From a virus, in the IMG/VR virus record IMGVR_UViG_3300045988_106194: 11,504 nucleotides of DNA; one strand, 5' to 3'. Below the pieces are notes generated by a model. That model was not told where the DNA came from. It worked only from the letters and a program-made list of their open reading frames with translations, and ran no database searches. Positions 1-11,504 of the stretch are shown here, one piece after another (position 1 is the first letter of the stretch; each line of letters starts with the position of its first letter). A program made the translations under genes and the position numbers.

Positions 1-40
1 AAAGGTACGCTACCCACCCCCTGCCACGTTCCCCCAACGG

Positions 41-70
41 CTTTTAACATAGTTTAACACAGTTTAACAC
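41..70. repeat. Three tandem 10-bp repeats (CTTTTAACAT AGTTTAACAC AGTTTAACAC), one per helical turn, 41-70 nt from the terminus
   Basis: Read directly from the sequence. Period is exactly 10 bp and the core GTT-T-AAC is palindromic. Mirrored at 11435-11464. Confidence 0.9.
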
Positions 71-141
71 GTGGGTACTGGGTCGCCACTCTACACGGCT
101 GGCACTGGCTTGCACGGCTGGGGCGGTGTTCGTGGTGTTAA

Positions 142-157
142 TGTTCCACGTGGAACA
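142..157. repeat. 16-bp perfect palindrome TGTTCCACGTGGAACA (operator-like site)
   Basis: Self-complementary over all 16 nt with a CACGTG core. The outer arms TGTT/AACA are the same as in the recurring TGTTTAACA element. Mirrored at 11348-11363. Confidence 0.9.
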
Positions 158-195
158 CTTGCCCTGTAACTCGCTGATTTTCAACGGCTTGCACG

Positions 196-239
196 AATTT
201 ACAAATGTAAATTTACAAATGTGAATAAATTTACAAAAC
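196..239. repeat. Tandem AATTTACAAA(TGT) repeats, three copies (196-208, 210-222, 227-239)
   Basis: Read directly: AATTTACAAATGT, AATTTACAAATGT, then AAATTTACAAAAC. On the opposite strand they contain TAnnTTTG-like boxes (TACATTTG at 209-202, TAGTTTTG at 241-234). Mirrored at 11266-11309. Confidence 0.85.
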
Positions 240-342
240 TAAACTGGTGCTGTTGGTTGCTGAAAATTTTTGCAGAAACTTTCACGTGGTTGCACGTTGG
301 TTGTTAAAAATTCTAAAAATGAAAATTTTTTCTCGCTTATGT

Positions 343-373
343 GTTGTTATGTCGAAAATTGTTTGTATCTTTG
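343..373 (+). promoter_or_regulatory. Candidate inward-facing promoter in the left ITR (TATCTTTG box at 366-373, GTTG 19 nt upstream)
   Basis: TATCTTTG fits the Bacteroidota -7 consensus TAnnTTTG. The identical octamer followed by GC also lies upstream of the capsid gene (4660-4653, minus strand). It sits 48 nt upstream of the ATG at 421. Motif match only. Confidence 0.4.
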
Positions 374-420
374 CACCGTGTTTGATACACAATGAATGTT
401 TAACAAATAATATATGTAAT

Positions 421-753
421 ATGGAACAGCAAAAAAATGTTGAACGGTTTAGGCTTGAAATGATAGTTAAAGCCGTTGAAGATGTAACAAGCGACTTTGA
501 CATTTCAGACGCTTTAAGCGACTATTTAGATTTGTTGCGTGACTTTTCGGGGTGTATTGAAAACATACAACATGACTGTTTTTTAACAGAGGGTGAACTA
601 CCCGAAAACGTGTTGGAAGAGTTGAAAGAACGTTACAACACAAACCGCCTTATTGAGTTGGTTTGGAACACTTCACACGTTGAAAGGGTATGCAAGGCAC
701 TGGAAACGGTGGCTAAACAAGTAAAGTATTTAAAAGATAGTATCAACAAATAA
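421..753 (+). CDS. Hypothetical small acidic protein (110 aa), first gene downstream of the left ITR promoter
   Basis: First ATG outside the ITR in the 247-753 ORF (MEQQKNVERF...), TAA stop. About 23 Asp/Glu versus about 14 Lys/Arg by my count. No transmembrane segment and no motif I recognise. Confidence 0.6.
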   Translation: MEQQKNVERFRLEMIVKAVEDVTSDFDISDALSDYLDLLRDFSGCIENIQHDCFLTEGELPENVLEELKERYNTNRLIELVWNTSHVERVCKALETVAKQVKYLKDSINK

Positions 754-765
754 CACGTGTTAATT

Positions 766-3316: not shown

Positions 3317-3358
3317 TAAAAAGAACGGGCTGGCAATGTTACCACCGCCAACCCGTCC
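3317..3358 (-). terminator. Rho-independent terminator/attenuator downstream of the capsid gene
   Basis: On the minus-strand RNA, GGACGGGUUGGC pairs with GCCAGCCCGUUC (12 bp, two of them G-U), with a 12-nt loop, followed by UUUUU (plus-strand A run 3318-3322). On the plus strand the two G-U pairs become A-C mismatches, so the hairpin is strand-specific. Confidence 0.7.
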
Positions 3359-3382
3359 ACCGTTTAATGAATGTTTACAAAG

Positions 3383-4588
3383 TTATGCTACAAAGAACAC
3401 AACAAAGTTTTCGTTGGTGTCGTTGAAATAGCCTGCGTCAAACTTGAAATAGTTGTTGAAGAACTCGGCTTTTGCGTTGTACGTGGTTGTTACACGTCTG
3501 TCAAGGTTGCAAACGCCCAAAGCGTCACGGTCAAACATAACGCCAAGAACGCCCGAAACGTTCACCGCTTCACCGCTGGCACTCTTTACGTTGATAGTCG
3601 AAACGCTGGCAAAGTCGTAGTTCTTACCGCTTGCCTGCCAACTCGGTACGGTTTCAGCGTTTGGCAAAAGTACCTGGTCTTTGTTGTAGGTGTCAGAATA
3701 GAGGTACGTTTGTGCTGCCTTTGCAAAGTCAGACAAAAGAACGGTGTGCAACATATCCACGGGGGTAAAACGTTCCTTTGCACCCACGTTGAACAGTGTG
3801 GAAACGGTCTGCATACGGTCGGCATACAGTCCCATAGTGTAAGACGCAAAACGGATAAATTCGGGGTTCGTAATTGCGTCCGCTGCTGTGATTGCATCGG
3901 GGTTTGCCGTTTCCCCGTCTGCTGGGTGGAACTTGTCGTTAAACAGCTTCAAAAGGTTCACGCAACGTACTGTACTGGCTGTTGCGTAGTCGGCTGCAAC
4001 TGAAGCCTTACCGCCAAACGCTGTTTTGTCTGCTTTCAGTGTTTCGGCTACCATGTTGTTAATTGTACGCATAATAAGTGCGTCCGCTTTGATAGTCATA
4101 GACTTTTCAACGGCTGAATAAATCATGCTTAAAAAGCCGTTCAACTGCTCGGCACTGCTGAAACTCTCCTTTACCTGTCTTTCGGTAATTGATACGGGCA
4201 CTTCAAAAGTTACCTTGCTGTTAAAGAACTTTGCCGTAACGGTTGGTTTGTGGAATACGTCCTGTTTGTACTCTGTACCGTCCTGCAAGTTCCACGTGTC
4301 GTTTTCGGTGGCTGCTGGAATGTCTGCTGAAATCTTTTCCAGTACGCTGCCAAACTCCCAAGCGTCCATTAAAACGCTGGGTACTTTACCGCTGTAAGGT
4401 CTGTTTACAAACACAACCTTTCCAATGTGGTTTACCAAACTTTTAACGTAGTTGTCCACTGCGTTGGCGTCGAATACTTCCGTACCCAAGTCCACAACAC
4501 CCGTTAAATCTTCCTGCACAATGTCGGTTTTGCCCAACACTTCATTTGATACGCTGTTAATAAGCGTGTAAATCTGCTTTACTTCCAT
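3383..4588 (-). CDS. Major capsid protein, phi29 gp8-like HK97 fold (401 aa), without the C-terminal Ig-like domain of gp8
   Basis: DNYVKSLVNHIGKVVFVNRP parallels phi29 gp8 [20 protein letters not shown]. The C-terminal GVMFDRDALGVCNLDRRVTTTYNAKAEFFNNYFKF parallels [35 protein letters not shown]. The order portal, small protein, capsid is canonical. Confidence 0.85.
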   Translation of the reverse strand: MEVKQIYTLINSVSNEVLGKTDIVQEDLTGVVDLGTEVFDANAVDNYVKSLVNHIGKVVFVNRPYSGKVPSVLMDAWEFGSVLEKISADIPAATENDTWNLQDGTEYKQDVFHKPTVTAKFFNSKVTFEVPVSITERQVKESFSSAEQLNGFLSMIYSAVEKSMTIKADALIMRTINNMVAETLKADKTAFGGKASVAADYATASTVRCVNLLKLFNDKFHPADGETANPDAITAADAITNPEFIRFASYTMGLYADRMQTVSTLFNVGAKERFTPVDMLHTVLLSDFAKAAQTYLYSDTYNKDQVLLPNAETVPSWQASGKNYDFASVSTINVKSASGEAVNVSGVLGVMFDRDALGVCNLDRRVTTTYNAKAEFFNNYFKFDAGYFNDTNENFVVFFVA

Positions 4589-4614
4589 GTTGTAAAATTT
4601 TTATTGTTAAACAA

Positions 4615-5181
4615 TTATTCGTATATATCCAGTGTTATTTCGCTTACAAGGGCAAAGATAATTTTTTCCTGCCACTTGTTACGCCTTAACTCCATTTCTT
4701 TAACCACGTTTTCCGATACGTTGCCCGTTGTCCCCTGTTGTTCTGTGGTACTGGTAACGGTTTCGGTGCGTGTCTTGTTCTGCTCGCTGGTGTCCCGTTC
4801 CCCGTCCGTGAACATATCATCGTTAAACGCCTTTTCTGCGTTTGTGGTGTTGTCCGTTCCCTGCTCGCTGGTGTCCCTGTTTTCGGTCTTCGTTACCTTT
4901 GCCGTGGTCGGTGTTACTGCGTTGTACTCGGTTGTCATCGCTTCCGCCTGTTTCAGCCAGTCGCCAACACGCATTGAAATGATACCACGCAAAACGGGTG
5001 CTGCCGTTGTCGCTGTCAGTCCCTCGGACAAAGTACGGTTGCCGTACTTAAACGCTGCCACTGCGTCCAGTTCTTCGGGTGGTGTACGGGCAAAAATTGT
5101 TCGGTACTCGTCCTCGAAATCGGGGTAAAAGTATTTTGCGAAAAGCCCGTTACCCTCTGTAAACAGTTCCTTGTACTTCAT
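4615..5181 (-). CDS. Hypothetical structural protein (188 aa) with a Thr/Ser/Glu/Asn-rich central region; scaffolding or head-tail adaptor candidate
   Basis: Lies between portal and capsid genes, the usual scaffold position. Its start overlaps the portal stop (ATGA). It contains an internal in-frame duplication (RDTSEQ twice). No recognisable motif. Confidence 0.55.
   Translation of the reverse strand: MKYKELFTEGNGLFAKYFYPDFEDEYRTIFARTPPEELDAVAAFKYGNRTLSEGLTATTAAPVLRGIISMRVGDWLKQAEAMTTEYNAVTPTTAKVTKTENRDTSEQGTDNTTNAEKAFNDDMFTDGERDTSEQNKTRTETVTSTTEQQGTTGNVSENVVKEMELRRNKWQEKIIFALVSEITLDIYE
4653..4660 (-). promoter_or_regulatory. Candidate late promoter -7 box (TATCTTTG) inside the 3' end of the 188-aa gene, 65 nt upstream of the capsid ATG
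   Basis: The reverse complement of 4653-4660 is TATCTTTG followed by C, the same box as in the ITRs. It is followed about 35 nt later by TTGTTTAACAAT, the same box-then-element order as in the ITR. No convincing -33 element. Confidence 0.3.
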
Positions 5182-6137
5182 TTCTTGCCCCCTTTCTTTT
5201 TACGCTGTTCCTCGGTGTCCTCATCGGTGGGGTCGTTTTCCCGTTCTTCCTCGGTTGTTACTTCCACGCCTGTAACCAAACTTTCGTAGTTTTCATGCTC
5301 CAAATACCAAGAACTACCCAAACGCACGGATATTTCAGTACCGAACATTTCGTTTACCTGTTTCAGTGCCTTTTGTCTTTCATGTAGCATATTATCCACA
5401 TACGGCAAAAGTACGTCAACATTCATAGCAACCTCGCCCGTGTTCAGTCGTTCACGCTTCATGTTGTAGTTGGCATTTAGTCCCAACTCGTTCAACATAT
5501 TAGCCTTGTAATACTGCACAAGTTCCACAAGTTGCGTTATATACTGGGTGTTGCTGGTGGCTGTTGTCTGCATATTAACGCCCTTAAAAAAGGCGTTTTC
5601 CCCGATAACGGAAAAGTCCCCGTCCAGTATCTTTTTTAAGAACTCGTCTGCACTTTGCTTTGTCTTGTCATCGCTGGCACTTATCAGCATAGTAATACGG
5701 GTTAAAATGCTGGCTGTGTTCAGTGATATAACACCGTCCGTATATAACACGGCAAATTTTCCTATAAGTGGCAAAAGGCTGTTGCCGTTGGTGTCGTTCT
5801 TGATAAAGACACCGTCCACGCCTATTTTATAGGACTTATTCAGTTTTAACGCTGGGTTCGCTACCGTGTAAATTGTCGGTCTGTTGTACGGGTCGGGTTC
5901 TCCACCTGCTGCACCCTGTAAGGCGTACAAGTCCCCGTTTACCTCTGCAAAAAAGGCGTTGCCCTCTGTCTGCAAAAGCCTTTCCAGTTCCTCGGCTGGC
6001 ACGGTGTCGGGTAAGCCCTCATATACAAGCATCGCCTGCGTTTTCGCCAACGTGTTTTCAATGAAAGACATTACCGCCATGTCCTTATTTTTAACGTAGG
6101 ACTGGAAACGCTGGTATATGTTTTCTTTTTTCTTCAT
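5178..6137 (-). CDS. Portal (head-tail connector) protein, phi29 gp10-like (about 319 aa from the ATG at 6137)
   Basis: [27 protein letters not shown] parallels gp10 [45 protein letters not shown] parallels [45 protein letters not shown] parallels [33 protein letters not shown]. The track start at 6164 is a TTG inside the promoter-like box, so I prefer [11 protein letters not shown] at 6137. TGA stop. Confidence 0.85.
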   Translation of the reverse strand: [319 protein letters not shown]

Positions 6138-6154
6138 ACGCACGTATATATAAA

Positions 6155-6177
6155 TTTTCTGCAAAAATACAAATTTA
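6155..6177 (-). promoter_or_regulatory. Candidate promoter for the structural genes in the ATPase-portal intergenic region
   Basis: The minus strand reads TAAATTTG TATTTTTG CAGAAAA, two adjacent TAnnTTTG boxes (6177-6170 and 6169-6162). The 12-mer TTTTTGCAGAAA is identical to 267-278 of the ITR. An alternative sigma70-like reading is TTGTAT, 16 nt, TATATA. The 85-nt gap is the largest non-terminal intergenic region inside the leftward array. Confidence 0.45.
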
Positions 6178-6222
6178 TTTTGTTAAAAGTGTACCGTTTG
6201 CAGAAAAATTTTCGTTTTAACC

Positions 6223-7359
6223 TTATTTTAGTGATATAATGTTGGTTTTTGCACTCGTTATAAGGTAATTTCGGACAATTTCGCCTACTTCGTTGTCTTG
6301 ATAGAAAACCTTATCAGTTGCGAAATATCTGGCTACCTGCTGTTCTATGTAACTGGCATTGCTTATAAGTTTGCGTTTGTAGTTCGGTTTGCCGTTCATT
6401 TCAAGTGAGTAAATAAGGCTGTTTTCCGTGTCCTTAATCGGGGTTGTTTTCATGTGTATATACGTGAAATTCTCGTTACCCACCTGTATAATGTTGCCCT
6501 GCAAAATAGTGTCGTTAAACTGGATATAATAGACAAACAAAACATCTTTCGGGGCATACTTCACGGGCAAATGTGGATATACTGCCAGTTCCCATTTACC
6601 GCCCGTTATCATCTGCAAATTTTGGTTGTCGAAACAAAAGTATTTGTTACTGGCTTTGTGCTTCACTACCGTACTGCAATACTCAACGGCTACCGTTGCC
6701 CCGTGTTCCCCGAAACGGTAAATGTCTATTGTACCCTGTTCCATTACTGGAACTTGCTTTAACCCCATTTCGGTAAAATACGGGCAATACTTGTTTACAG
6801 TGTTACCCAACATGAAAACCTTTACATCGTCCCTTTGTCGTATTATGGTGCTTAATAGGTTCATAAACAACATAAACTCATCGGGCAAATAGTAACGCCT
6901 TGTTAGGAACTCATCAAATACCACGGTCGTAACATTCGGGTAACTGCTGCTTTTTTCGTGTTCCTGCTCGGACAAACAAAAGCCGTAACAAAACGGCACA
7001 TCGCACGGGGTACGCTTGCCCGTTTCTTCGTTGTAGTACGACAAAAACCATTTGTTCGACATATAGAACACCTCGTTAAATTTCCCGTCTGTAAGGGTCG
7101 AAATAAGCCCGTTTGCCGTGTGGTTTGCAAATAGGCTTTCGGCACGTTTGCCCCTCAAATCTTCACGCCAACGCCTAATATATGCCATTTGCTTGCTCGT
7201 GTTAATAAACTGTTCCAGTCCGTAACGTAACGCTGCGTATGTCTTACCGTTGGAACGCTCGCCAAATATCAGATTATAGTCTGCGTTCTTTGCCAGTATC
7301 TCCCCCAAATCGTAAAATTTCGGGGTGTTGCTTTCCTGCTGCTGTTTCTTCTTTGCCAT
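6223..7359 (-). CDS. DNA packaging (encapsidation) ATPase, phi29 gp16-like (378 aa)
   Basis: Walker A is GERSNGKTY. MAYIRRWREDL parallels gp16 FIYVRRYKPEL. SSYPNVTTVVFDEFLTR (Walker B) parallels NAYPNVSTIVFDEFIRE. FMLGNTVNKYCPYF parallels ICLSNAVSVVNPYF. Confidence 0.9.
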   Translation of the reverse strand: MAKKKQQQESNTPKFYDLGEILAKNADYNLIFGERSNGKTYAALRYGLEQFINTSKQMAYIRRWREDLRGKRAESLFANHTANGLISTLTDGKFNEVFYMSNKWFLSYYNEETGKRTPCDVPFCYGFCLSEQEHEKSSSYPNVTTVVFDEFLTRRYYLPDEFMLFMNLLSTIIRQRDDVKVFMLGNTVNKYCPYFTEMGLKQVPVMEQGTIDIYRFGEHGATVAVEYCSTVVKHKASNKYFCFDNQNLQMITGGKWELAVYPHLPVKYAPKDVLFVYYIQFNDTILQGNIIQVGNENFTYIHMKTTPIKDTENSLIYSLEMNGKPNYKRKLISNASYIEQQVARYFATDKVFYQDNEVGEIVRNYLITSAKTNIISLK

Positions 7360-7364
7360 ATCCT

Positions 7365-9572
7365 TTAATCTTTGAATTTGATACCACGTAAATAATTAAG
7401 ATAGATAACGGACAAACTAAGGCTGTACCCTGTCGGTTCAAGGTGTACCCCCGATTTTTCGTTATAGTCGCACTCGTTGCCTAAATAGTCAAATATGCTT
7501 CCAGTTATGCCGTAATCTATATAAGTGTGAATGTTTTTGCCTGTTGCTTTCGGGGGCAAATCAAGGTAGTTTGTAAATGCGTCAAATATGCCGTTTTGCC
7601 CGTACTTCTCCATAAGGTAGGGAATAGCACATTTTTTGTTTACGCCCGAAACGGTCAAAGATACGGGGTAACTTTTGCCCCCTGTCTTCAATGCGTTTTC
7701 CTGCTCTACCATGTAGCGTTTTGCCCCCAGTGTCTTAAAACGGGTGTAACGCCCCTCATAGTCCCAAACGCCTAACAACTTCTTTACGCCTTTTATTGTT
7801 TTCGGCTGGCACATCTCAAAGGGTATGCCGTGGAACTTGCACGCCTTGCGTAACTTCTGTTCTGCCTGTTTGTTGTAGGTGTCGAAATACGCTTTGTGCT
7901 GGTCGCCCTGCATTAACTTTATACTGTCGGTGTCGCTATATATGTAATCGTCTTTCGCTTCATATATTCCCGTGAATAGGTTACGCCTTGCGTATGCCGT
8001 TACAAAGATACCCCACGGATAAAACAAAAAACGGTTCTTGCTGGAATTGTAGGTATATAGCAAGTTACTTTGCTGTTCGGGTGTCATGTGTTCGGTGTCC
8101 CAGTCCCCGTTATATACGAACTCATCACGGAGGGGGTTTGTTACACACATACCGTAACAACTGTTTAGCATTTCCTTACTGTTCAAATACTCTACTTCCA
8201 TACCGTCCACGCCCTTTAAGGTGGTTTTCTTTTCGTATAGGTGTAATATAGCCTTTACAAACTCGGTCGGCAAATATCCACGCTTGTAACAGTACATCGT
8301 ACCCACACGCATACTTTCCCAGTGGTAAAAGTTCTTTATTATGTGAAAGTCAATATCTGTTATTGTGAGGGCTATTTGTTTGGCTGCTGCCACACGTCCG
8401 TTATTTTCTACCACGTTCTGTTTTATAAAACACTTGCTGGCACTTATCGGGTTGTCCTGTGTTTCGCTGGTGAATATGTTGTTAAACTCAATATCGAAGA
8501 CACAACAGTATTTCGATATAAGAAACTCAAATTGTTTCATACTCTTTACCTGTATGCAAACGCCCTTACTCATCGGGTATTGTTCGGCTACCATTACATA
8601 AGGGTAACTGCTGGTAAAGTCGTAACTATCCACTTCGGGGGTTATCTCATCGGTGTAAATTGCGTTTGCGTGTGTGAAACCGCCTGCAAAGGCACGTTGC
8701 AACATTCTGAACTCATCTAAACCCGTTATTTGTAGTTCCTGCATTAAATTAACGTAGTCCCAGTTTGGCACGGTCTTTCCCTCTTCGTTCTTTGTGCGCA
8801 AACAGTGCTTTCGGCAATACTTGCGTACAAACCCCGTCTTCGTCAAAGGTAGGTTGCAAATGTGCTTCACTTCTTCGATACGTTCCTGTATGTAACACAT
8901 CACTACTTTTATATCATTGATACAGTAACCTATTTCGGCATTTGTAAGGGGTGTTTGTCGGTGTCTTAATAGTGAGTAATCAAGGTCGCCCGTTTTCTTC
9001 TCACACTTGTATTTAACCAACTGTTCCCCAAGTTTAGCCAGTGAGTAACCCGATAAAAGGTAACTACACCGAAACTCTATAAAACGGCTGGTAATAGCGT
9101 AAATAGGTTTTCGCAAATCAATGCTGAAAACCTTTGCCCAGTCAAACCAATTTCGTATAAACTGGAACTCATACGAAAGGTTATGCACGTAGCATATTAA
9201 CCGCCTTTTCTCACCCAGTTGTAGGGTGTCGGCTATCACTTCGCACATTTCCGTAAATTCGTCCCACGTCCTGCCAACTATCACACGCCCGTTAATACCA
9301 AACTGCCAAACGTACATTATAGCCGCCTTTTCCAGTTTTATTTTACGTTTCTGCATAAGCCTTTGCGCCTGTTCGTAGTCGTATGCCGTCCCGTCCTCAT
9401 CACGGTAAAAACTGGTTGTTTCAATGTCAAAGGAACACGGCACATTATAAAAGTGTTCCCCCTTGCTGTTGCCTGTCAAATTCTTTTCATTAACGGATAA
9501 CTCTAAAACGGTGGCTATGTCAGTCGGTTTGTATATTCGGGTATCTTTTTCATTAAACGGTATTTTCTTCAT
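7365..9572 (-). CDS. Protein-primed family B DNA polymerase (735 aa)
   Basis: Exonuclease motifs are ExoI SFDIETTS, ExoII HNLSYEFQF and ExoIII YCINDIKVV. Polymerase motifs are A DFTSSYPYV, B KEMLNSCYG, C YSDTDSIK and KxY LGAKRYM. All are in canonical order and resemble phi29 DNA polymerase motifs. ITR-bounded genome context. Confidence 0.95.
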   Translation of the reverse strand: MKKIPFNEKDTRIYKPTDIATVLELSVNEKNLTGNSKGEHFYNVPCSFDIETTSFYRDEDGTAYDYEQAQRLMQKRKIKLEKAAIMYVWQFGINGRVIVGRTWDEFTEMCEVIADTLQLGEKRRLICYVHNLSYEFQFIRNWFDWAKVFSIDLRKPIYAITSRFIEFRCSYLLSGYSLAKLGEQLVKYKCEKKTGDLDYSLLRHRQTPLTNAEIGYCINDIKVVMCYIQERIEEVKHICNLPLTKTGFVRKYCRKHCLRTKNEEGKTVPNWDYVNLMQELQITGLDEFRMLQRAFAGGFTHANAIYTDEITPEVDSYDFTSSYPYVMVAEQYPMSKGVCIQVKSMKQFEFLISKYCCVFDIEFNNIFTSETQDNPISASKCFIKQNVVENNGRVAAAKQIALTITDIDFHIIKNFYHWESMRVGTMYCYKRGYLPTEFVKAILHLYEKKTTLKGVDGMEVEYLNSKEMLNSCYGMCVTNPLRDEFVYNGDWDTEHMTPEQQSNLLYTYNSSKNRFLFYPWGIFVTAYARRNLFTGIYEAKDDYIYSDTDSIKLMQGDQHKAYFDTYNKQAEQKLRKACKFHGIPFEMCQPKTIKGVKKLLGVWDYEGRYTRFKTLGAKRYMVEQENALKTGGKSYPVSLTVSGVNKKCAIPYLMEKYGQNGIFDAFTNYLDLPPKATGKNIHTYIDYGITGSIFDYLGNECDYNEKSGVHLEPTGYSLSLSVIYLNYLRGIKFKD

Positions 9573-10242: not shown

Positions 10243-10272
10243 ACAAAAGGGGGTAAGCGTGTACCCACCCCC
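10243..10272 (-). terminator. Rho-independent terminator/attenuator between the 120-aa gene and the terminal-protein candidate; also an internal near-copy of the genome terminus
   Basis: The minus-strand RNA GGGGGUGG pairs with UUACCCCC (6 Watson-Crick plus 2 G-U pairs), with an 8-nt loop, followed by UUUUGUU. On the plus strand, 10246-10273 AAAGGGGGTAAGCGTGTACCCACCCCCT resembles the terminal 22 nt AAAGGTACGCTACCCACCCCCT and shares an exact 12-mer. Confidence 0.7.
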
Positions 10273-10296
10273 TTATAAGTAAGACAATACAGTAAA

Positions 10297-10659
10297 TTAC
10301 AAGTCCACAAACGAAACATTGTAACACTTCTTTCCGTGGCTCTCATACTCGTAGATAGTGTAACCTACTTTGCCGTTTTTAATCGCTTCAACGGCTTCAC
10401 TGTCTGCCAGTATTTCACAGGCTGTTTCTGCCATGTGTGAAGGTAGGTTTACTAACTTCTTCGCTTCTGCGTCAATGATAACGGGGCTATCGCCTAAACC
10501 GTTCTTGCTGGCATGTACGAAAATGCCGTTAATCGGGTGTACTACATCGTTGCCCCCGTTGTCCTTACTGTTGAAAATGTCTGCCAACTTGATATACTCA
10601 AAGTTGCTGGTGTCGATACCGAAACCGACTTTGTTAAACTTACTTGCAAATGTTGCCAT
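10297..10659 (-). CDS. Hypothetical early protein (120 aa); candidate abundant DNA-binding protein (SSB or dsDNA-binding)
   Basis: Occupies the position of phi29 genes 5/6, upstream of the terminal protein and polymerase genes. Its 5' leader is nearly identical to that of the capsid gene, and its own terminator follows. No motif I can name. Confidence 0.55.
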   Translation of the reverse strand: MATFASKFNKVGFGIDTSNFEYIKLADIFNSKDNGGNDVVHPINGIFVHASKNGLGDSPVIIDAEAKKLVNLPSHMAETACEILADSEAVEAIKNGKVGYTIYEYESHGKKCYNVSFVDL

Positions 10660-10670
10660 AGTTGTAAACT

Positions 10671-10690
10671 TTATTTGTTAAACATTCATT
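10671..10690 (-). promoter_or_regulatory. Internal copy of the ITR-boundary element AATGAATGTTTAACAAATAA, 11 nt upstream of the 120-aa gene ATG
   Basis: The reverse complement of 10671-10690 is identical over 20 nt to 391-410 at the left ITR junction. It overlaps the last codons (SMNV stop) of the 64-aa ORF. Confidence 0.7.
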
Positions 10691-10872
10691 GAATTGTCTT
10701 TCTGTTCGGTGGCTGTGAACTCTAAAAGCCACTTTTTGAAACGGTTTATCTTCATAACCGCTTTGTCATTCTTGCATACCTCGTTTGTAGTAATAAGGTG
10801 GTTCAGTGCAGCCAGTACCTCAAAACTGTACTCGTCAAACGGGTTGCGTACTTCGTTGTTATTCTCTGCCAT
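10678..10872 (-). CDS. Hypothetical small early protein (64 aa)
   Basis: ATG start 18 nt after the upstream stop, TAA stop, co-directional and tightly packed. No transmembrane segment or recognisable motif. Confidence 0.5.
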   Translation of the reverse strand: MAENNNEVRNPFDEYSFEVLAALNHLITTNEVCKNDKAVMKINRFKKWLLEFTATEQKDNSMNV

Positions 10873-10890
10873 TTTCTTATAAATTAAATG

Positions 10891-11109
10891 TTAATCAATG
10901 TTCGTTACTGCGTTCAGCGCGTGAATTATTTGCCCCGTGTACGGGTCAAAATGCACCGTTTCGCAAAACGCCTTTACATACTCGGCTTTGTAGCGTACCA
11001 ACGTCAAAGTAATTTCACGTTGTGCGTTGTAGTCCTTTGGAACTACCTGTTTACCATTCAAGTAATAAACGTGTTCATTGTTCATATACCATAACTTTTT
11101 GTTAAACAT
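10891..11109 (-). CDS. Hypothetical small early protein (72 aa; alternative start at 11085 giving MNNEHVYY...)
   Basis: First ORF downstream of the right ITR promoter. Its first four codons (ATG TTT AAC AAA) lie inside the ITR. TAA stop. No recognisable motif. Confidence 0.5.
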   Translation of the reverse strand: MFNKKLWYMNNEHVYYLNGKQVVPKDYNAQREITLTLVRYKAEYVKAFCETVHFDPYTGQIIHALNAVTNID

Positions 11110-11504
11110 TCATTGTGTATCAAACACGGTGCAAAGATACAAACAATTTTCGACATAACAACACATAAGCGAGAAAAAATTTTCATTTTTAGAATTTTTA
11201 ACAACCAACGTGCAACCACGTGAAAGTTTCTGCAAAAATTTTCAGCAACCAACAGCACCAGTTTAGTTTTGTAAATTTATTCACATTTGTAAATTTACAT
11301 TTGTAAATTCGTGCAAGCCGTTGAAAATCAGCGAGTTACAGGGCAAGTGTTCCACGTGGAACATTAACACCACGAACACCGCCCCAGCCGTGCAAGCCAG
11401 TGCCAGCCGTGTAGAGTGGCGACCCAGTACCCACGTGTTAAACTGTGTTAAACTATGTTAAAAGCCGTTGGGGGAACGTGGCAGGGGGTGGGTAGCGTAC
11501 CTTT
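11098..11504. repeat. Right inverted terminal repeat (407 bp)
   Basis: Exact reverse complement of 1-407 by manual comparison. It carries mirrored copies of the 10-bp repeats (11435-11464), the palindrome (11348-11363) and the AATTTACAAA repeats (11266-11309). Confidence 0.93.
11132..11139 (-). promoter_or_regulatory. Right-ITR copy of the inward-facing TATCTTTG promoter box
   Basis: Mirror image of 366-373. It lies 23 nt upstream of the ATG at 11109. Confidence 0.4.

What the first reader, a model, noticed from the sequence alone, without database searches (positions are those of the whole stretch)
10630..10690. Recurrent AATGAATGTTTAACAAA(TAA) element at the ITR junctions and in front of highly expressed genes
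I found the following copies: 391-407 (plus strand, left ITR edge) and 11098-11114 (minus strand, right ITR edge); 10671-10690 (minus strand, identical to 391-410 over 20 nt, 11 nt upstream of the 120-aa gene); AGTTTAACAAA inside the same gene at 10640-10630; TTGTTTAACAAT at 4614-4603 directly upstream of the capsid ATG; CTTTTAACAAAA at 6189-6178 upstream of the portal; and a plus-strand copy at 3366-3382. The capsid and 120-aa gene leaders are nearly superimposable (TGTTTAACAATAAAAATTTTACAAC-ATG versus TGTTTAACAAATAAAGTTTACAACT-ATG). The core TGTT-T-AACA is palindromic and shares its arms with the 16-bp ITR palindrome and the 10-bp terminal repeats. This hints that one recognition code links the origins to gene expression. 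Its function could be a promoter, a translational operator or enhancer, or a recombination site, and is unknown.
Basis: seen in the sequence. Interest (0 to 1): 0.65.

Follow-up and report, generated by a model that had tools for sequence, protein, structure and literature searches.

The report
Shine-Dalgarno-free translation start leader
The repeated AATGAATGTTTAACAAA element is real and conserved, but it is most likely this phage's copy of the Shine-Dalgarno-free ribosome start signal that Bacteroidota and their phages place before heavily made proteins, and not a code tying replication origins to gene expression.

Summary
The window is a complete 11.5-kb phi29-like podovirus with exact 407-bp inverted terminal repeats (ITRs). 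The 17-mer lies at both inner ITR edges, and a 21-nt identical copy precedes the 120-aa gene, which I identify by predicted fold as the phage single-stranded DNA-binding protein (SSB). A variant precedes the capsid gene.

The core GTTWAAC always starts 22-24 nt before the ATG. That distance is fixed to the start codon, not to the promoter. The element lies downstream of conserved Bacteroidota-type -7 promoter boxes (TAHHTTTG), or between cistrons in any upstream reading frame. Its 3' half carries adenines at -3, -6 and -11 to -14, the experimentally defined enhancers of Shine-Dalgarno (SD)-independent initiation in Bacteroidia.

- In about 88 SD-less relatives, 93% of SSB orthologues keep the core at that position. 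SD-using relatives have GGAGG instead.
- The same 14-mer at the same spacing precedes rplC, tpiA and porL in bacterial contigs.
- It also precedes capsid-like, tail, SSB and recombinase genes in unrelated phages.

Best reading: a strong host-type translation-initiation leader. The ITR edge is where the shared promoter and leader end. An origin-expression code is not supported. The sharply placed GTTWAAC box may be an undescribed part of this signal.

The parts
390..420 (+). Leader of the left early gene gL (ATG 421). CAATGAATGTTTAACAAATAA plus an AT-rich spacer. GTTTAAC starts at -23. The first 18 nt are the inner edge of the left ITR.
11086..11115 (-). Leader of the right early gene gA (ATG 11085). 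It is the ITR mirror copy of the element. GTTTAAC starts at -22 and A fills -11 to -14. The ATG at 11109 inside the motif is in frame with gA and is an alternative start.
10660..10691 (-). Intercistronic leader of gC, the SSB gene (ATG 10659). It is 21 nt identical to 390-410. GTTTAAC starts at -24, with A at -3, -6 and -11 to -13. Its 5' part encodes the last residues and stop codon of gB (..S M N V *).
4589..4619 (-). Leader of the major capsid gene (ATG 4588): AATAATTGTTTAACAATAAAAATTTTACAAC. GTTTAAC starts at -24, with A at -3 and -11 to -14. Present only in the window's subclade (window, L004-L006).
10873..10896 (-). Degenerate copy before gB (ATG 10872): GATTAAC followed by 17 nt, then ATG.
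   Evidence: read from sequence
742..765 (+). Degenerate copy before gM (ATG 766): ATCAACAAATAA, followed by the 12-bp palindrome TAACACGTGTTA.
   Evidence: read from sequence
6178..6189 (-). CTTTTAACAAAA directly upstream of the two portal -7 boxes. It lies at about -13 to -22 of that promoter, not in a translation leader.
366..373 (+). TATCTTTG, a Bacteroidota -7 promoter box in the left ITR, 17 nt upstream of the 17-mer (391-407). Conserved in relatives. The predicted transcription start is near 378.
   Evidence: PMC6847099
11132..11139 (-). Mirror copy of the ITR -7 box, serving the right early operon gA-gB-gC.
4653..4660 (-). TATCTTTG inside the 3' end of the scaffold gene, 65-72 nt upstream of the capsid ATG. 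Conserved in the 80% clade. Candidate capsid promoter.
6162..6177 (-). Two adjacent -7 boxes, TAAATTTG and TATTTTTG, upstream of the portal gene. Close relatives vary only at the two free positions (TATATTTG, TATCTTTG).
10297..10659 (-). gC, 120 aa, the single-stranded DNA-binding protein. Followed by an intrinsic terminator at 10247-10274.
3383..4588 (-). Major capsid protein gene (Phi29_MCP). Followed by an intrinsic terminator at 3323-3358.
3366..3382 (+). Antisense partial copy AATGAATGTTTACAAAG. On the sense strand it overlaps a -7-like box TAACTTTG (3378-3385) at the capsid stop codon. Probably not a functional copy.
10630..10640 (-). AGTTTAACAAA inside gC. It codes for K-F-N-K, which is conserved at the protein level in relatives. 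Not counted as a regulatory copy.
1..407 (.). Left ITR; its mirror is 11098-11504. It contains the terminal AAAGGTACGC, three tandem 10-bp TTTAACA units (41-70), a 16-bp palindrome (143-158), and the early promoter and leader up to the element.

Best explanation
The element is the 5' part of a strong, Shine-Dalgarno-independent translation-initiation region of the kind used by Bacteroidota, which is this phage's probable host phylum.

The full unit is about 25 nt of unstructured RNA. It consists of GUUWAAC at about -25 to -18, then AAWUAAA supplying adenines at -14 to -11, then A at -6 and -3, then AUG.

Transcripts start at conserved host -7 promoters, which lie in each ITR and upstream of the capsid and portal genes. 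On these mRNAs the unit recruits the 30S subunit, presumably through protein bS1 and the upstream-adenine contacts. This happens at first cistrons (gL, gA, capsid) and at internal cistrons (SSB; gB in relatives). It marks genes whose products are needed in bulk.

The element lies at the ITR edge because both terminal early operons share the promoter and leader, and they diverge only about 13 nt before their different start codons.

Shown here by computation: position, conservation, A pattern, low predicted structure, replacement by an SD in SD-using relatives, and occurrence before host and unrelated-phage genes. Inferred: ribosome binding, enhancement of translation, and the host phylum.
For: 1. 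**Distance is tied to the ATG, not the promoter.** GTTWAAC starts 22-24 nt before four window start codons. It starts 24-27 nt before 215 gene starts in about 88 related genomes. Its distance to the -7 box ranges from 3 to 37 nt.
2. **It lies inside transcripts.** It is 17 nt downstream of the ITR -7 box and 40 nt downstream of the capsid -7 box. It is intercistronic before the SSB gene. It overlaps the upstream gene's end in different frames (..SMNV* in the window..SMFNN* in L031) or lies in an untranslated spacer.
3. **The A positions persist.** A at -3, -6 and -11 to -14 is kept through indels and substitutions. These are the positions shown by reporter mutagenesis to stimulate initiation in Flavobacterium johnsoniae (PMC6847099).
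4. **The clade is SD-less.** 0% of its capsid starts have an SD-like motif, against 80% in relatives with 66% or lower capsid identity. Cultured Astrithrvirus phages also have SDs. TAHHTTTG boxes are conserved at operon heads.
5. **Leaders carrying the motif fold less than shuffles.** Their z-scores are +0.9 to +1.3, against -0.4 to +0.5 for five leaders without it (gD, portal, gM, polymerase, packaging ATPase).
6. **The exact 14-mer with the same spacing marks real gene starts elsewhere.** It does so in 71% of hits in unrelated viral contigs and 54% in metagenome contigs, against 17-18% for any ATG and 28% for the A-rich half alone. The genes are rplC, tpiA and porL/gldL, and virion structural, major tail, gp32-like SSB, UvsX-like and Erf-like genes.
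7. **A general upstream box appears in neighbouring genes.** In 1669 neighbouring SD-less gene starts that lack the searched 14-mer, TTAAC/AACAA-type 6-mers are 3.4-5.7 times enriched at -28 to -21.
8. **The marked genes are bulk products.** In the family the box marks the SSB gene (93%) and gB (99%). It is absent (0%) before the putative terminal protein (gD), polymerase, packaging ATPase, portal, scaffold and tail genes. The SSB assignment rests on fold: Foldseek E = 3e-9, TM 0.74.
Against: - There is no experimental evidence, and the host is inferred, not identified.
- The GTTWAAC box is present at only a few percent of SD-less gene starts, so it is not required for initiation. Its contribution beyond AT-richness is only correlative.
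- Copies within one genome resemble each other more than orthologous copies in other clades do (TACAAC in the window, TACTACA in the 80% clade). The 21-nt identity extends into a 5' flank (CAATGAATG) that is not conserved elsewhere. Both point to gene conversion or recombination, or to a lineage-specific trans-factor.
- The window version carries two upstream AUGs, which Bacteroidia initiation regions usually avoid (PMC6847099). Both are closed by TAA codons inside the motif.
- The inward-pointing TTTAAC repeats in the ITR termini cannot be explained by translation.
- The collection scans returned only the first 120 stretches each, so frequencies cannot be estimated.
Confidence: 0.62

Rival explanations
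1. Translational operator. A phage protein binds the leader RNA of early genes and shuts off or autoregulates their translation, as T4 RegA and T4 gp32 do. The SSB encoded just downstream is one candidate.
For: - The element precedes the SSB gene and the other small early genes (gA, gL; gB in relatives).
- The SSB identity rests on fold.
- The leader is unstructured and UAAA-rich, like the gp32 operator (own knowledge).
- Copies evolve in concert within a genome.
Against: - The same 14-mer at the same spacing precedes host housekeeping genes and genes of unrelated phages. This argues for a host-wide reader.
- It also precedes the late capsid gene in the window.
- No RNA-binding domain was found in the small proteins.
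Confidence: 0.1
2. DNA-level site for a sequence-specific DNA-binding protein, phage or host, that also binds the TTTAACA repeats and palindromes of the ITRs. This would couple origin function to gene control.
For: - Three or four inward-pointing TTTAAC lie in the terminal 200 nt of all seven genomes with intact ends, about 20 times the genome density.
- GTT-W-AAC is symmetric, and both central bases occur at the same distance from the ATG.
- In relative L106 the ITR-type palindrome GTTTCACGTGAAAC sits 0-17 nt before seven start codons.
Against: - The symmetry is only 3 bp per arm, and the flanking T/A is not conserved.
- All 14 window copies are in the sense orientation.
- The distance is fixed to the ATG, not to promoters.
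- The element occurs between rpsJ and rplC and before tpiA and porL in bacteria.
- No DNA-binding domain was detected in the window's small proteins.
Confidence: 0.07
3. Internal promoter giving leaderless or very short-leader mRNAs for the SSB and capsid genes. The TTTAACAA part would act as an AT-rich upstream element and TAAAnTTT as a weak -7 box.
For: The portal promoter reads TTTAACAAAATAAATTTG. It aligns with the SSB leader TTTAACAAATAAAGTTTA. AT-rich elements near -18 are reported for F. johnsoniae promoters.
Against: - The T-run and the G of the supposed -7 box are not conserved (GTTAC, GATTAC, GAATTAC in relatives). Real -7 boxes are nearly invariant at six positions.
- Leaders shorter than 10 nt are only 3.7% in B. 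thetaiotaomicron.
- The element lies downstream of genuine -7 boxes.
- The sigma-70 scan gave no excess of sites.
Confidence: 0.08
4. Recombination junction. The short conserved sequence is primarily a site where homologous or illegitimate recombination sets the ITR boundary and shuffles gene modules.
For: - The ITR identity stops exactly at the element.
- The 21-nt identity includes a flank that is otherwise not conserved.
- ITR lengths vary from 55 to 868 nt in relatives. Their inner ends fall on other shared motifs: the palindrome, the -7 box, or GTTCAATTAAAC.
Against: - This does not explain the fixed distance to the ATG, the A pattern, or the occurrence in host genes.
- The one apparent module swap (L006) looks like an assembly chimera at the inverted repeat.
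- It is better seen as a consequence of having identical functional leaders in inverted orientation.
Confidence: 0.05
5. RNA processing site. A host endoribonuclease cuts polycistronic early mRNA at (A/U)G|UUUAAC. This would give each abundant-protein cistron its own roughly 24-nt leader, the modal 5' UTR length in Bacteroides.
For: - The leader from GUUUAAC to AUG is 22-26 nt. This is close to the 23-nt mode of B. thetaiotaomicron 5' UTRs.
- In several unrelated phages the box begins 5-8 nt after a -7 box, close to the predicted transcription start, so the mRNA 5' end would fall at or just before it.
Against: There is no direct evidence. The -7 box distance is variable. No structure or known RNA family matches.
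Confidence: 0.05

Closest known systems
Bacteroidia SD-independent translation-initiation region. This is the A-rich 'non-SD RBS': Accetto & Avgustin 2011 PMC3155529, GeneMarkS-2 group B PMC6028130, Baez et al. 2019 PMC6847099.
   Same: - No SD.
- A/T enrichment centred at -13, with A at -3 and -6 and often T at -1.
- Low predicted structure.
- Present before both first and internal cistrons.
- Sits too close to the ATG, within leadered mRNAs, to be a promoter.
   Different: The window element adds a sharply positioned, sequence-specific GTTWAAC(AA) box at -25 to -17. The papers I could read do not describe this box. The nearest hint is 'U signals near position -25' in Nakagawa 2017 (PMC5397173). 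I could not read Wegmann et al. 2013.
AU-rich translational enhancers upstream of the start codon that act through ribosomal protein S1, for example the phage T7 gene 10 leader 'epsilon' UUAACUUUA (from my own knowledge, not tested here).
   Same: A short, unstructured U/A-rich sequence containing UUAAC. It lies upstream of the ribosome-binding region of very highly expressed phage genes and acts in cis on the mRNA.
   Different: The T7 enhancer works together with an SD in an SD-using host. Here there is no SD, and the spacing to the AUG is fixed at about 17-19 nt.
Phage T4 RegA and gp32 translational operators (own knowledge).
   Same: A recurrent AU-rich sequence over the initiation regions of several early mRNAs, including the SSB gene's own leader.
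   Different: Those operators are read by a phage-encoded repressor and are specific to that phage. This element also occurs before cellular genes and in unrelated phages.
phi29 p4 and p6 binding sites and early/late promoter switch (review PMC11476376).
   Same: The phage type is the same: protein-primed replication, ITRs, early operons at the genome ends, and a terminator after the abundant early proteins.
   Different: The phi29 sites are DNA elements upstream of sigma-A promoters or bendability signals at the ends. The element here is tied to start codons. No p4 or p6 homologue was detected.
Short conserved boundary sequences that mediate module exchange in phages, such as the PeSL promoter/stem-loop repeats of T4-like phages (own knowledge).
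   Same: Identical regulatory sequences repeated at gene boundaries. ITR and module edges coincide with them.
   Different: Here recombination is at most a side effect, and no verified module swap was found.

Membership tests
Bacteroidia SD-independent translation-initiation region | Lies within about 30 nt upstream of the start codon on leadered mRNA, at first and internal cistrons alike | tested here: met
   GTTWAAC starts at -22 to -27 in the window and in 215 related gene starts. It occurs downstream of -7 boxes and between cistrons.
Bacteroidia SD-independent translation-initiation region | No Shine-Dalgarno complementarity | tested here: met
   SD-like motifs are at 0% before gB, gC, capsid and most other genes of the clade (up to 15% before the scaffold gene), against 80% of capsid starts in SD-using relatives.
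Bacteroidia SD-independent translation-initiation region | Adenines at -11 to -14, -6 and -3 | tested here: met
   - gC: TAAA at -14 to -11, with A at -6 and -3.
- Capsid: AAAA at -14 to -11 and A at -3.
- Family means: 3.55-3.85 of 4 A at -11 to -14, and A at -3 and -6 in at least 94% of gB and gC leaders.

(reference positions)
Bacteroidia SD-independent translation-initiation region | Little secondary structure around the start | tested here: met
   Five motif leaders have MFE of -1.1 to -7 kcal/mol and z-scores of +0.9 to +1.3 against shuffles. The effect is modest.
Bacteroidia SD-independent translation-initiation region | The host belongs to Bacteroidota | tested here: inconclusive
   All evidence is indirect, and there is no isolate or CRISPR link.
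- Conserved TAHHTTTG boxes.
- Absence of SD.
- The same leader before porL/gldL.
- Gut MAG bins include Prevotella, Phocaeicola and Muribaculaceae, but also many non-Bacteroidota bins.
Bacteroidia SD-independent translation-initiation region | Mutation lowers translation without changing the mRNA level | not testable with these tools
   Needs reporter assays or toeprinting.
Bacteroidota sigma-ABfr promoter (-33 TTTG / -7 TAnnTTTG) | TAHHTTTG with the transcription start 4-5 nt downstream | tested here: not met
   The element holds no such octamer. The nearest candidate (TAAAGTTT) varies at the invariant positions in relatives. Genuine boxes lie upstream of the element.
Phage-specific translational operator (RegA / gp32 type) | The sequence is confined to the mRNAs of the phage that encodes the repressor | tested here: not met
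   The same 14-mer and spacing occur before host genes and genes of unrelated phages.
Phage-specific translational operator (RegA / gp32 type) | Specific binding by a phage protein | not testable with these tools
   No RNA-binding domain was found in the small proteins. SSB is identified by fold only.
Palindromic operator for a dimeric DNA-binding protein shared with the ITRs | Symmetric conservation of both half-sites and orientation independence | tested here: not met
   Only 3-bp arms are conserved, and the outer T/A is variable. The 14 window copies are all sense-oriented. However, GTTAAAC does replace GTTTAAC at 61 related gene starts.
Recombination / mosaic boundary sequence | Breakpoints of ITRs or modules coincide with the repeat | tested here: inconclusive
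   The window ITR ends exactly at the element. Relatives' ITRs end at other shared motifs. The only apparent module swap is a probable assembly artefact.

The most novel reading that the evidence does not exclude
GUUWAAC(AA) at about -25 to -17 is a previously undescribed, sequence-specific upstream box of Shine-Dalgarno-independent initiation across Bacteroidota and their phages. It would be a defined contact point for the 30S subunit or protein bS1. Together with the known adenines, it would mark the most strongly translated genes. It could then be used both as a strong synthetic ribosome-binding site for gut Bacteroidales and as a host-prediction signature for uncultured phages.
Probability: 0.3. 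Interest if true: 0.55.

Novelty: new member of a known kind. Interest (0 to 1): 0.33.

Why it matters
- **Host prediction.** The result turns a puzzling repeat into a readable signal. An uncultured gut phi29-like phage clade carries the promoter (-7 box) and ribosome-start grammar of Bacteroidota. Its cultured cousins (Astrithrvirus) and its more distant relatives use Shine-Dalgarno sites. Regulatory grammar alone therefore points to a host phylum for hundreds of 11-kb gut phage genomes.
- **ITR boundary.** It explains why the ITR stops where it does: at the end of the shared promoter and leader.
- **A testable leader.** The analysis isolates a compact, sharply positioned leader, GTTTAACAAWTAAA-N7-11-ATG. 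This leader recurs before SSB, capsid-like, tail and recombinase genes of unrelated phages, and before rplC, tpiA and porL. It is a concrete candidate for testing how ribosomes choose start codons without an SD, and for use as a strong expression element in Bacteroidales.

Tried and rejected
- **Sigma-70 promoter scan.** 26 sites against 18.4 ± 5.1 in shuffles. This is no excess, and the model is not relevant to the likely host.
- **Rfam, all families, E ≤ 1.** Nothing found, including no phi29 pRNA.
- **RNA hairpin at the palindrome.** TGTT-T-AACA would leave a 1-nt loop, so it cannot fold. The leaders are less structured than shuffles.
- **Weak -7 box reading (TAAAGTTT).** The critical T-run and G are not conserved in relatives.
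- **The TAA inside GTT-TAA-C as the point of the motif** (upstream stop codon, termination-reinitiation). Only 12 of 125 distinct real-start hits use it as the upstream stop, 14 use the later WTAA, and 98 use neither.
- **Element tied to the transcription start.** Only 21 of 125 hits have a -7 box within 45 nt, at distances of 3-37 nt.
- **L006 as evidence of recombination at the motif.** The contig starts and ends at the inverted 21-nt repeat, so it is probably an assembly chimera.
- **Pfam, PHROGs and NCBIfam on the small proteins.** No DNA- or RNA-binding family was found.
- **PDB fold search for gC.** It gave only weak OB-fold/SSB hints (E ≥ 0.02). The viral structure library was decisive.
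- **Megablast against GenBank phages.** No nucleotide match.
- **Literature search for the sequence itself.** It returned only primers. The B. thetaiotaomicron 'PM2' promoter motif could not be compared because its sequence is not in the text. Wegmann et al. 2013 is not held.
Full report
**What the window is.** The 11,504-nt window is a complete linear genome of a phi29-like podovirus.
- It carries a protein-primed family-B DNA polymerase (7365-9572, minus strand), a Gp16-type packaging ATPase (6223-7359), a connector (5178-6137), a Phi29-type major capsid protein (3383-4588), and a perfect 407-bp ITR.
- Its closest cultured relatives are the Astrithrvirus phages of Salmonella, Pectobacterium and Acinetobacter, at only about 59% capsid identity and with no nucleotide similarity.
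- IMG/VR holds at least 368 stretches that encode a relative of the capsid protein. I fetched the best 80, at 78-98% capsid identity, most of them from contigs of about 11 kb. I also fetched 33 more distant relatives from gut and other MAG collections.

**Checking the observation.**
The 17-mer occurs three times exactly. The copy at 10671-10691 matches the left ITR junction over 21 nt.
- Allowing up to 3 mismatches gives five hits against 0.14 expected.
- The core GTTWAAC starts 22-24 nt before four of the 13 start codons: gL, gA, gC and capsid. None of 20,000 leader shuffles reached three.
- All 14 GTTTAAC in the genome run in the direction of transcription.
- Degenerate copies precede gB (GATTAAC) and gM (ATCAACAAATAA).
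- The portal copy is different in kind. It abuts two promoter boxes rather than a start codon.

**Host grammar.** The window's genes lack Shine-Dalgarno sequences, and their leaders are A/T-rich.
- Across relatives there is a clean split. Genomes with about 68% or higher capsid identity have no SD. The more distant ones, and the cultured Astrithrvirus phages, have GGAGG-type SDs.
- The octamer TAHHTTTG is over-represented in the window, with 19 copies against 8.5 expected. This is the -7 promoter element of Bacteroidota, whose transcription start lies 4-5 nt downstream (PMC6847099).
- It sits where operons should begin. One copy is in each ITR (366-373 and its mirror). Two are before the portal gene, where close relatives differ only at the two free positions. 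One lies 65-72 nt before the capsid ATG and is conserved in the 80% clade.
- The same boxes head the early and late operons of all SD-less relatives examined.
- The host is therefore very probably a member of the Bacteroidota. This is an inference.

**Where the element sits.**
- In the ITRs the 17-mer begins 17 nt downstream of the -7 box. That puts it at about +14 of the predicted early transcript.
- Before the capsid gene it lies about 40 nt downstream of the -7 box.
- Before gC there is no promoter. The element overlaps the last codons and stop of gB.
- In the 80% clade the block (A/T)GTTTAACAATTAAAAG(T/A)TTACTACA-ATG precedes both gB and gC. In one case it encodes ..SMFNN*. In the other it lies in an untranslated spacer.
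- The constant is the distance to the ATG. In about 88 genomes GTTWAAC starts 24-27 nt before 215 gene starts, 154 as GTTTAAC and 61 as GTTAAAC.
- It is found before 93% of gC orthologues and 99% of gB orthologues. It is absent (0%) before the putative terminal protein (gD), polymerase, packaging ATPase, portal, scaffold and tail genes, and it precedes the capsid gene only in the window's own subclade.

**The 3' half is a textbook Bacteroidia initiation region.**
- Through substitutions and one-base indels, the leaders keep A at -3, -6 and -11 to -14.
- Ribosome profiling and reporter mutagenesis in F. johnsoniae show that exactly these positions stimulate initiation.
- Earlier logo studies describe the same A/T peak at -13, A at -3 and T at -1.
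- GeneMarkS-2 used the same argument I use here. A motif this close to the ATG, in leadered mRNAs and at internal cistrons, cannot be a promoter.
- The motif-bearing leaders are predicted to be less structured than shuffled versions.
- In the one SD-using relative that has a recognisable SSB orthologue, the block is replaced by an SD.

**What the marked genes are.**
- gC had no family match by sequence. An AlphaFold model (pLDDT 82.5) matches the SSB of Staphylococcus phage JBug18 and uncharacterised proteins of other small podophages (E = 3e-9, TM 0.74).
- gC is followed by a strong intrinsic terminator, as is the capsid gene.
- SSB and capsid protein are the two products such a phage needs in the largest amounts.

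**Is the element specific to this phage family?** No.
- Outside the family, the pattern's ATG opens an ORF of at least 60 codons in 71% of viral hits and 54% of metagenome hits. The figure for any ATG is 17-18%.
- The A-rich half alone gives 28%, and an AT-rich 9-mer prefix gives 29%. With GTTTAACAA the figure is 62%.
- The downstream genes include 50S protein L3, triose-phosphate isomerase and the type IX secretion motor PorL/GldL, which is a Bacteroidota hallmark. In unrelated phages they include virion structural (capsid-like) proteins, a major tail protein, a gp32-like SSB, a UvsX-like recombinase and an Erf-like annealing protein.
- I also examined 1669 neighbouring SD-less gene starts that do not carry the searched 14-mer. 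The known A peaks appear there. The hexamers ATTAAC, AACAAT, GTTTAA, TAACAA and TTTAAC are 3.4-5.7 times enriched at -28 to -21. The positional p-values are 1e-9 to 1e-15 in viral loci and about 1e-4 in metagenome loci.
- The box does not depend on being the upstream stop codon or on a fixed distance to a -7 box.
- A reader common to many Bacteroidota and their phages, most simply the ribosome, fits these facts. A protein peculiar to this phage does not.

**Why the element is at the ITR edge.**
- Both terminal early operons use the same promoter and leader, and the two ends diverge about 13 nt before their different start codons. The ITR boundary is thus the end of shared function.
- In relatives the ITR length ranges from 55 to 868 nt. 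The identity stops at other shared motifs. Most often this is the palindrome TGTTTCACGTGGAACA. Sometimes it is the -7 box or the sequence GTTCAATTAAAC.
- The 21-nt identity between the ITR copy and the gC copy reaches into a flank (CAATGAATG) that other clades do not conserve. Copies within a genome also resemble each other more than orthologous copies do. Occasional gene conversion or recombination between leaders is therefore likely, but as a side effect.
- The only apparent module swap at the motif (L006) is best explained as an assembly chimera.

**The origin link.**
- The terminal 200 nt of all seven genomes with intact AAAGGTA ends carry three or four inward-pointing TTTAAC and none pointing outward. 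That is about 20 times the genome density. In the window these are three tandem 10-bp units at 41-70.
- These repeats lie upstream of the early promoter and near no start codon, so they must act on DNA. I cannot explain them.
- They share six bases with the leader box, but nothing else ties the two together.
- In one divergent relative (L106) the ITR-type 14-bp palindrome does sit just before seven start codons. I record this as unexplained.

**Verdict.**
The unifying origin-expression code is unsupported.
- The element is a new member of a known kind, the SD-independent initiation region of Bacteroidota.
- The sharply placed GTTWAAC(AA) box is not described in the literature I could read. It may deserve experimental testing.

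Noticed in passing
window 143-158 and 11347-11362; L031 214-229 and 256-271; L106 and L113 genome-wide: A 16-bp perfect palindrome, TGTTCCACGTGGAACA, lies in each ITR.
- Relatives carry GTTTCACGTGGAAC two or three times per ITR.
- In most 80%-clade genomes the ITR identity stops exactly at it.
- In L106 (about 17 copies) and L113 (about 7 copies) it is scattered over the whole genome.
- In L106 it lies 0-17 nt before seven start codons.

Its function is unknown.
   Followed up: partly
window 41-70 and 11435-11464; first 200 nt of L019, L031, L038, L055, L071, L074: Three or four inward-pointing TTTAAC(A) lie in the terminal 200 nt of every genome with intact AAAGGTA ends, and none point outward. 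This is about 20 times the genome density. In the window they form three tandem 10-bp units. They are probably an origin-associated DNA element.
   Followed up: partly
L031 66-80, 124-138, 172-186; window 100-114: The ITRs of the 80% clade contain TGGCACGGTTTTTGC twice and a TTGT variant once. This matches the sigma-54 -24/-12 consensus. L106 has it too. The window has TGGCACTGGCTTGCA, with the spacing one base short.
   Followed up: no
window 3378-3385 with 3323-3358 (minus strand); after the SSB gene in L031 1247-1290: A -7 box TAACTTTG sits directly in front of a GC-rich hairpin and T-run. In the window it overlaps the capsid stop codon. In the 80% clade it follows the SSB gene. It looks like a back-to-back terminator and promoter module, or a promoter whose transcript starts with a stabilising hairpin.
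   Followed up: partly
window 10297-10659 (minus): The unannotated 120-aa protein is the phage SSB by predicted fold (pLDDT 82.5; Foldseek E = 3e-9, TM 0.74 to the Staphylococcus phage JBug18 SSB). No sequence-family library recognised it. It has more than 500 homologues in gut metagenomes.
   Followed up: yes
window 391-410, 10671-10690, 11098-11114: The window's version of the leader holds two upstream AUGs that open mini-ORFs closed inside the motif: AUG AAU GUU UAA and AUG UUU AAC AAA UAA. In the right ITR the second AUG is instead in frame with gA, which would give a 72-aa rather than a 64-aa product. Upstream AUGs are normally avoided near Bacteroidia start codons (PMC6847099).
   Followed up: no
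window 196-240 and mirror 11265-11309: There are three direct repeats of AAATTTACAAA(TG/AC) in each ITR. The reverse strand holds an outward-pointing TACATTTG at 202-209.
   Followed up: no
whole window: No endolysin or holin is recognisable in the window, although cultured Astrithrvirus relatives encode an endolysin after the tail gene. The two plus-strand genes (421-753 and 766-1128) have no family match.
   Followed up: no
L006 ends (1-40 and 10296-10375): This 10.4-kb contig starts at the motif before gC. It ends by joining the gL leader to the 3' end of gB through the inverted 21-nt repeat. It is probably an assembly chimera. It shows that the repeat can mislead short-read assemblers and truncate the ITRs.
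   Followed up: partly
window 1-12; L031 1-12: The terminal sequence AAAGGTACGCTA is shared between clades whose ITRs otherwise differ. It resembles the AAAGTA terminal repeat of phi29 (PMC11476376), consistent with a conserved minimal origin for protein-primed initiation.
   Followed up: no
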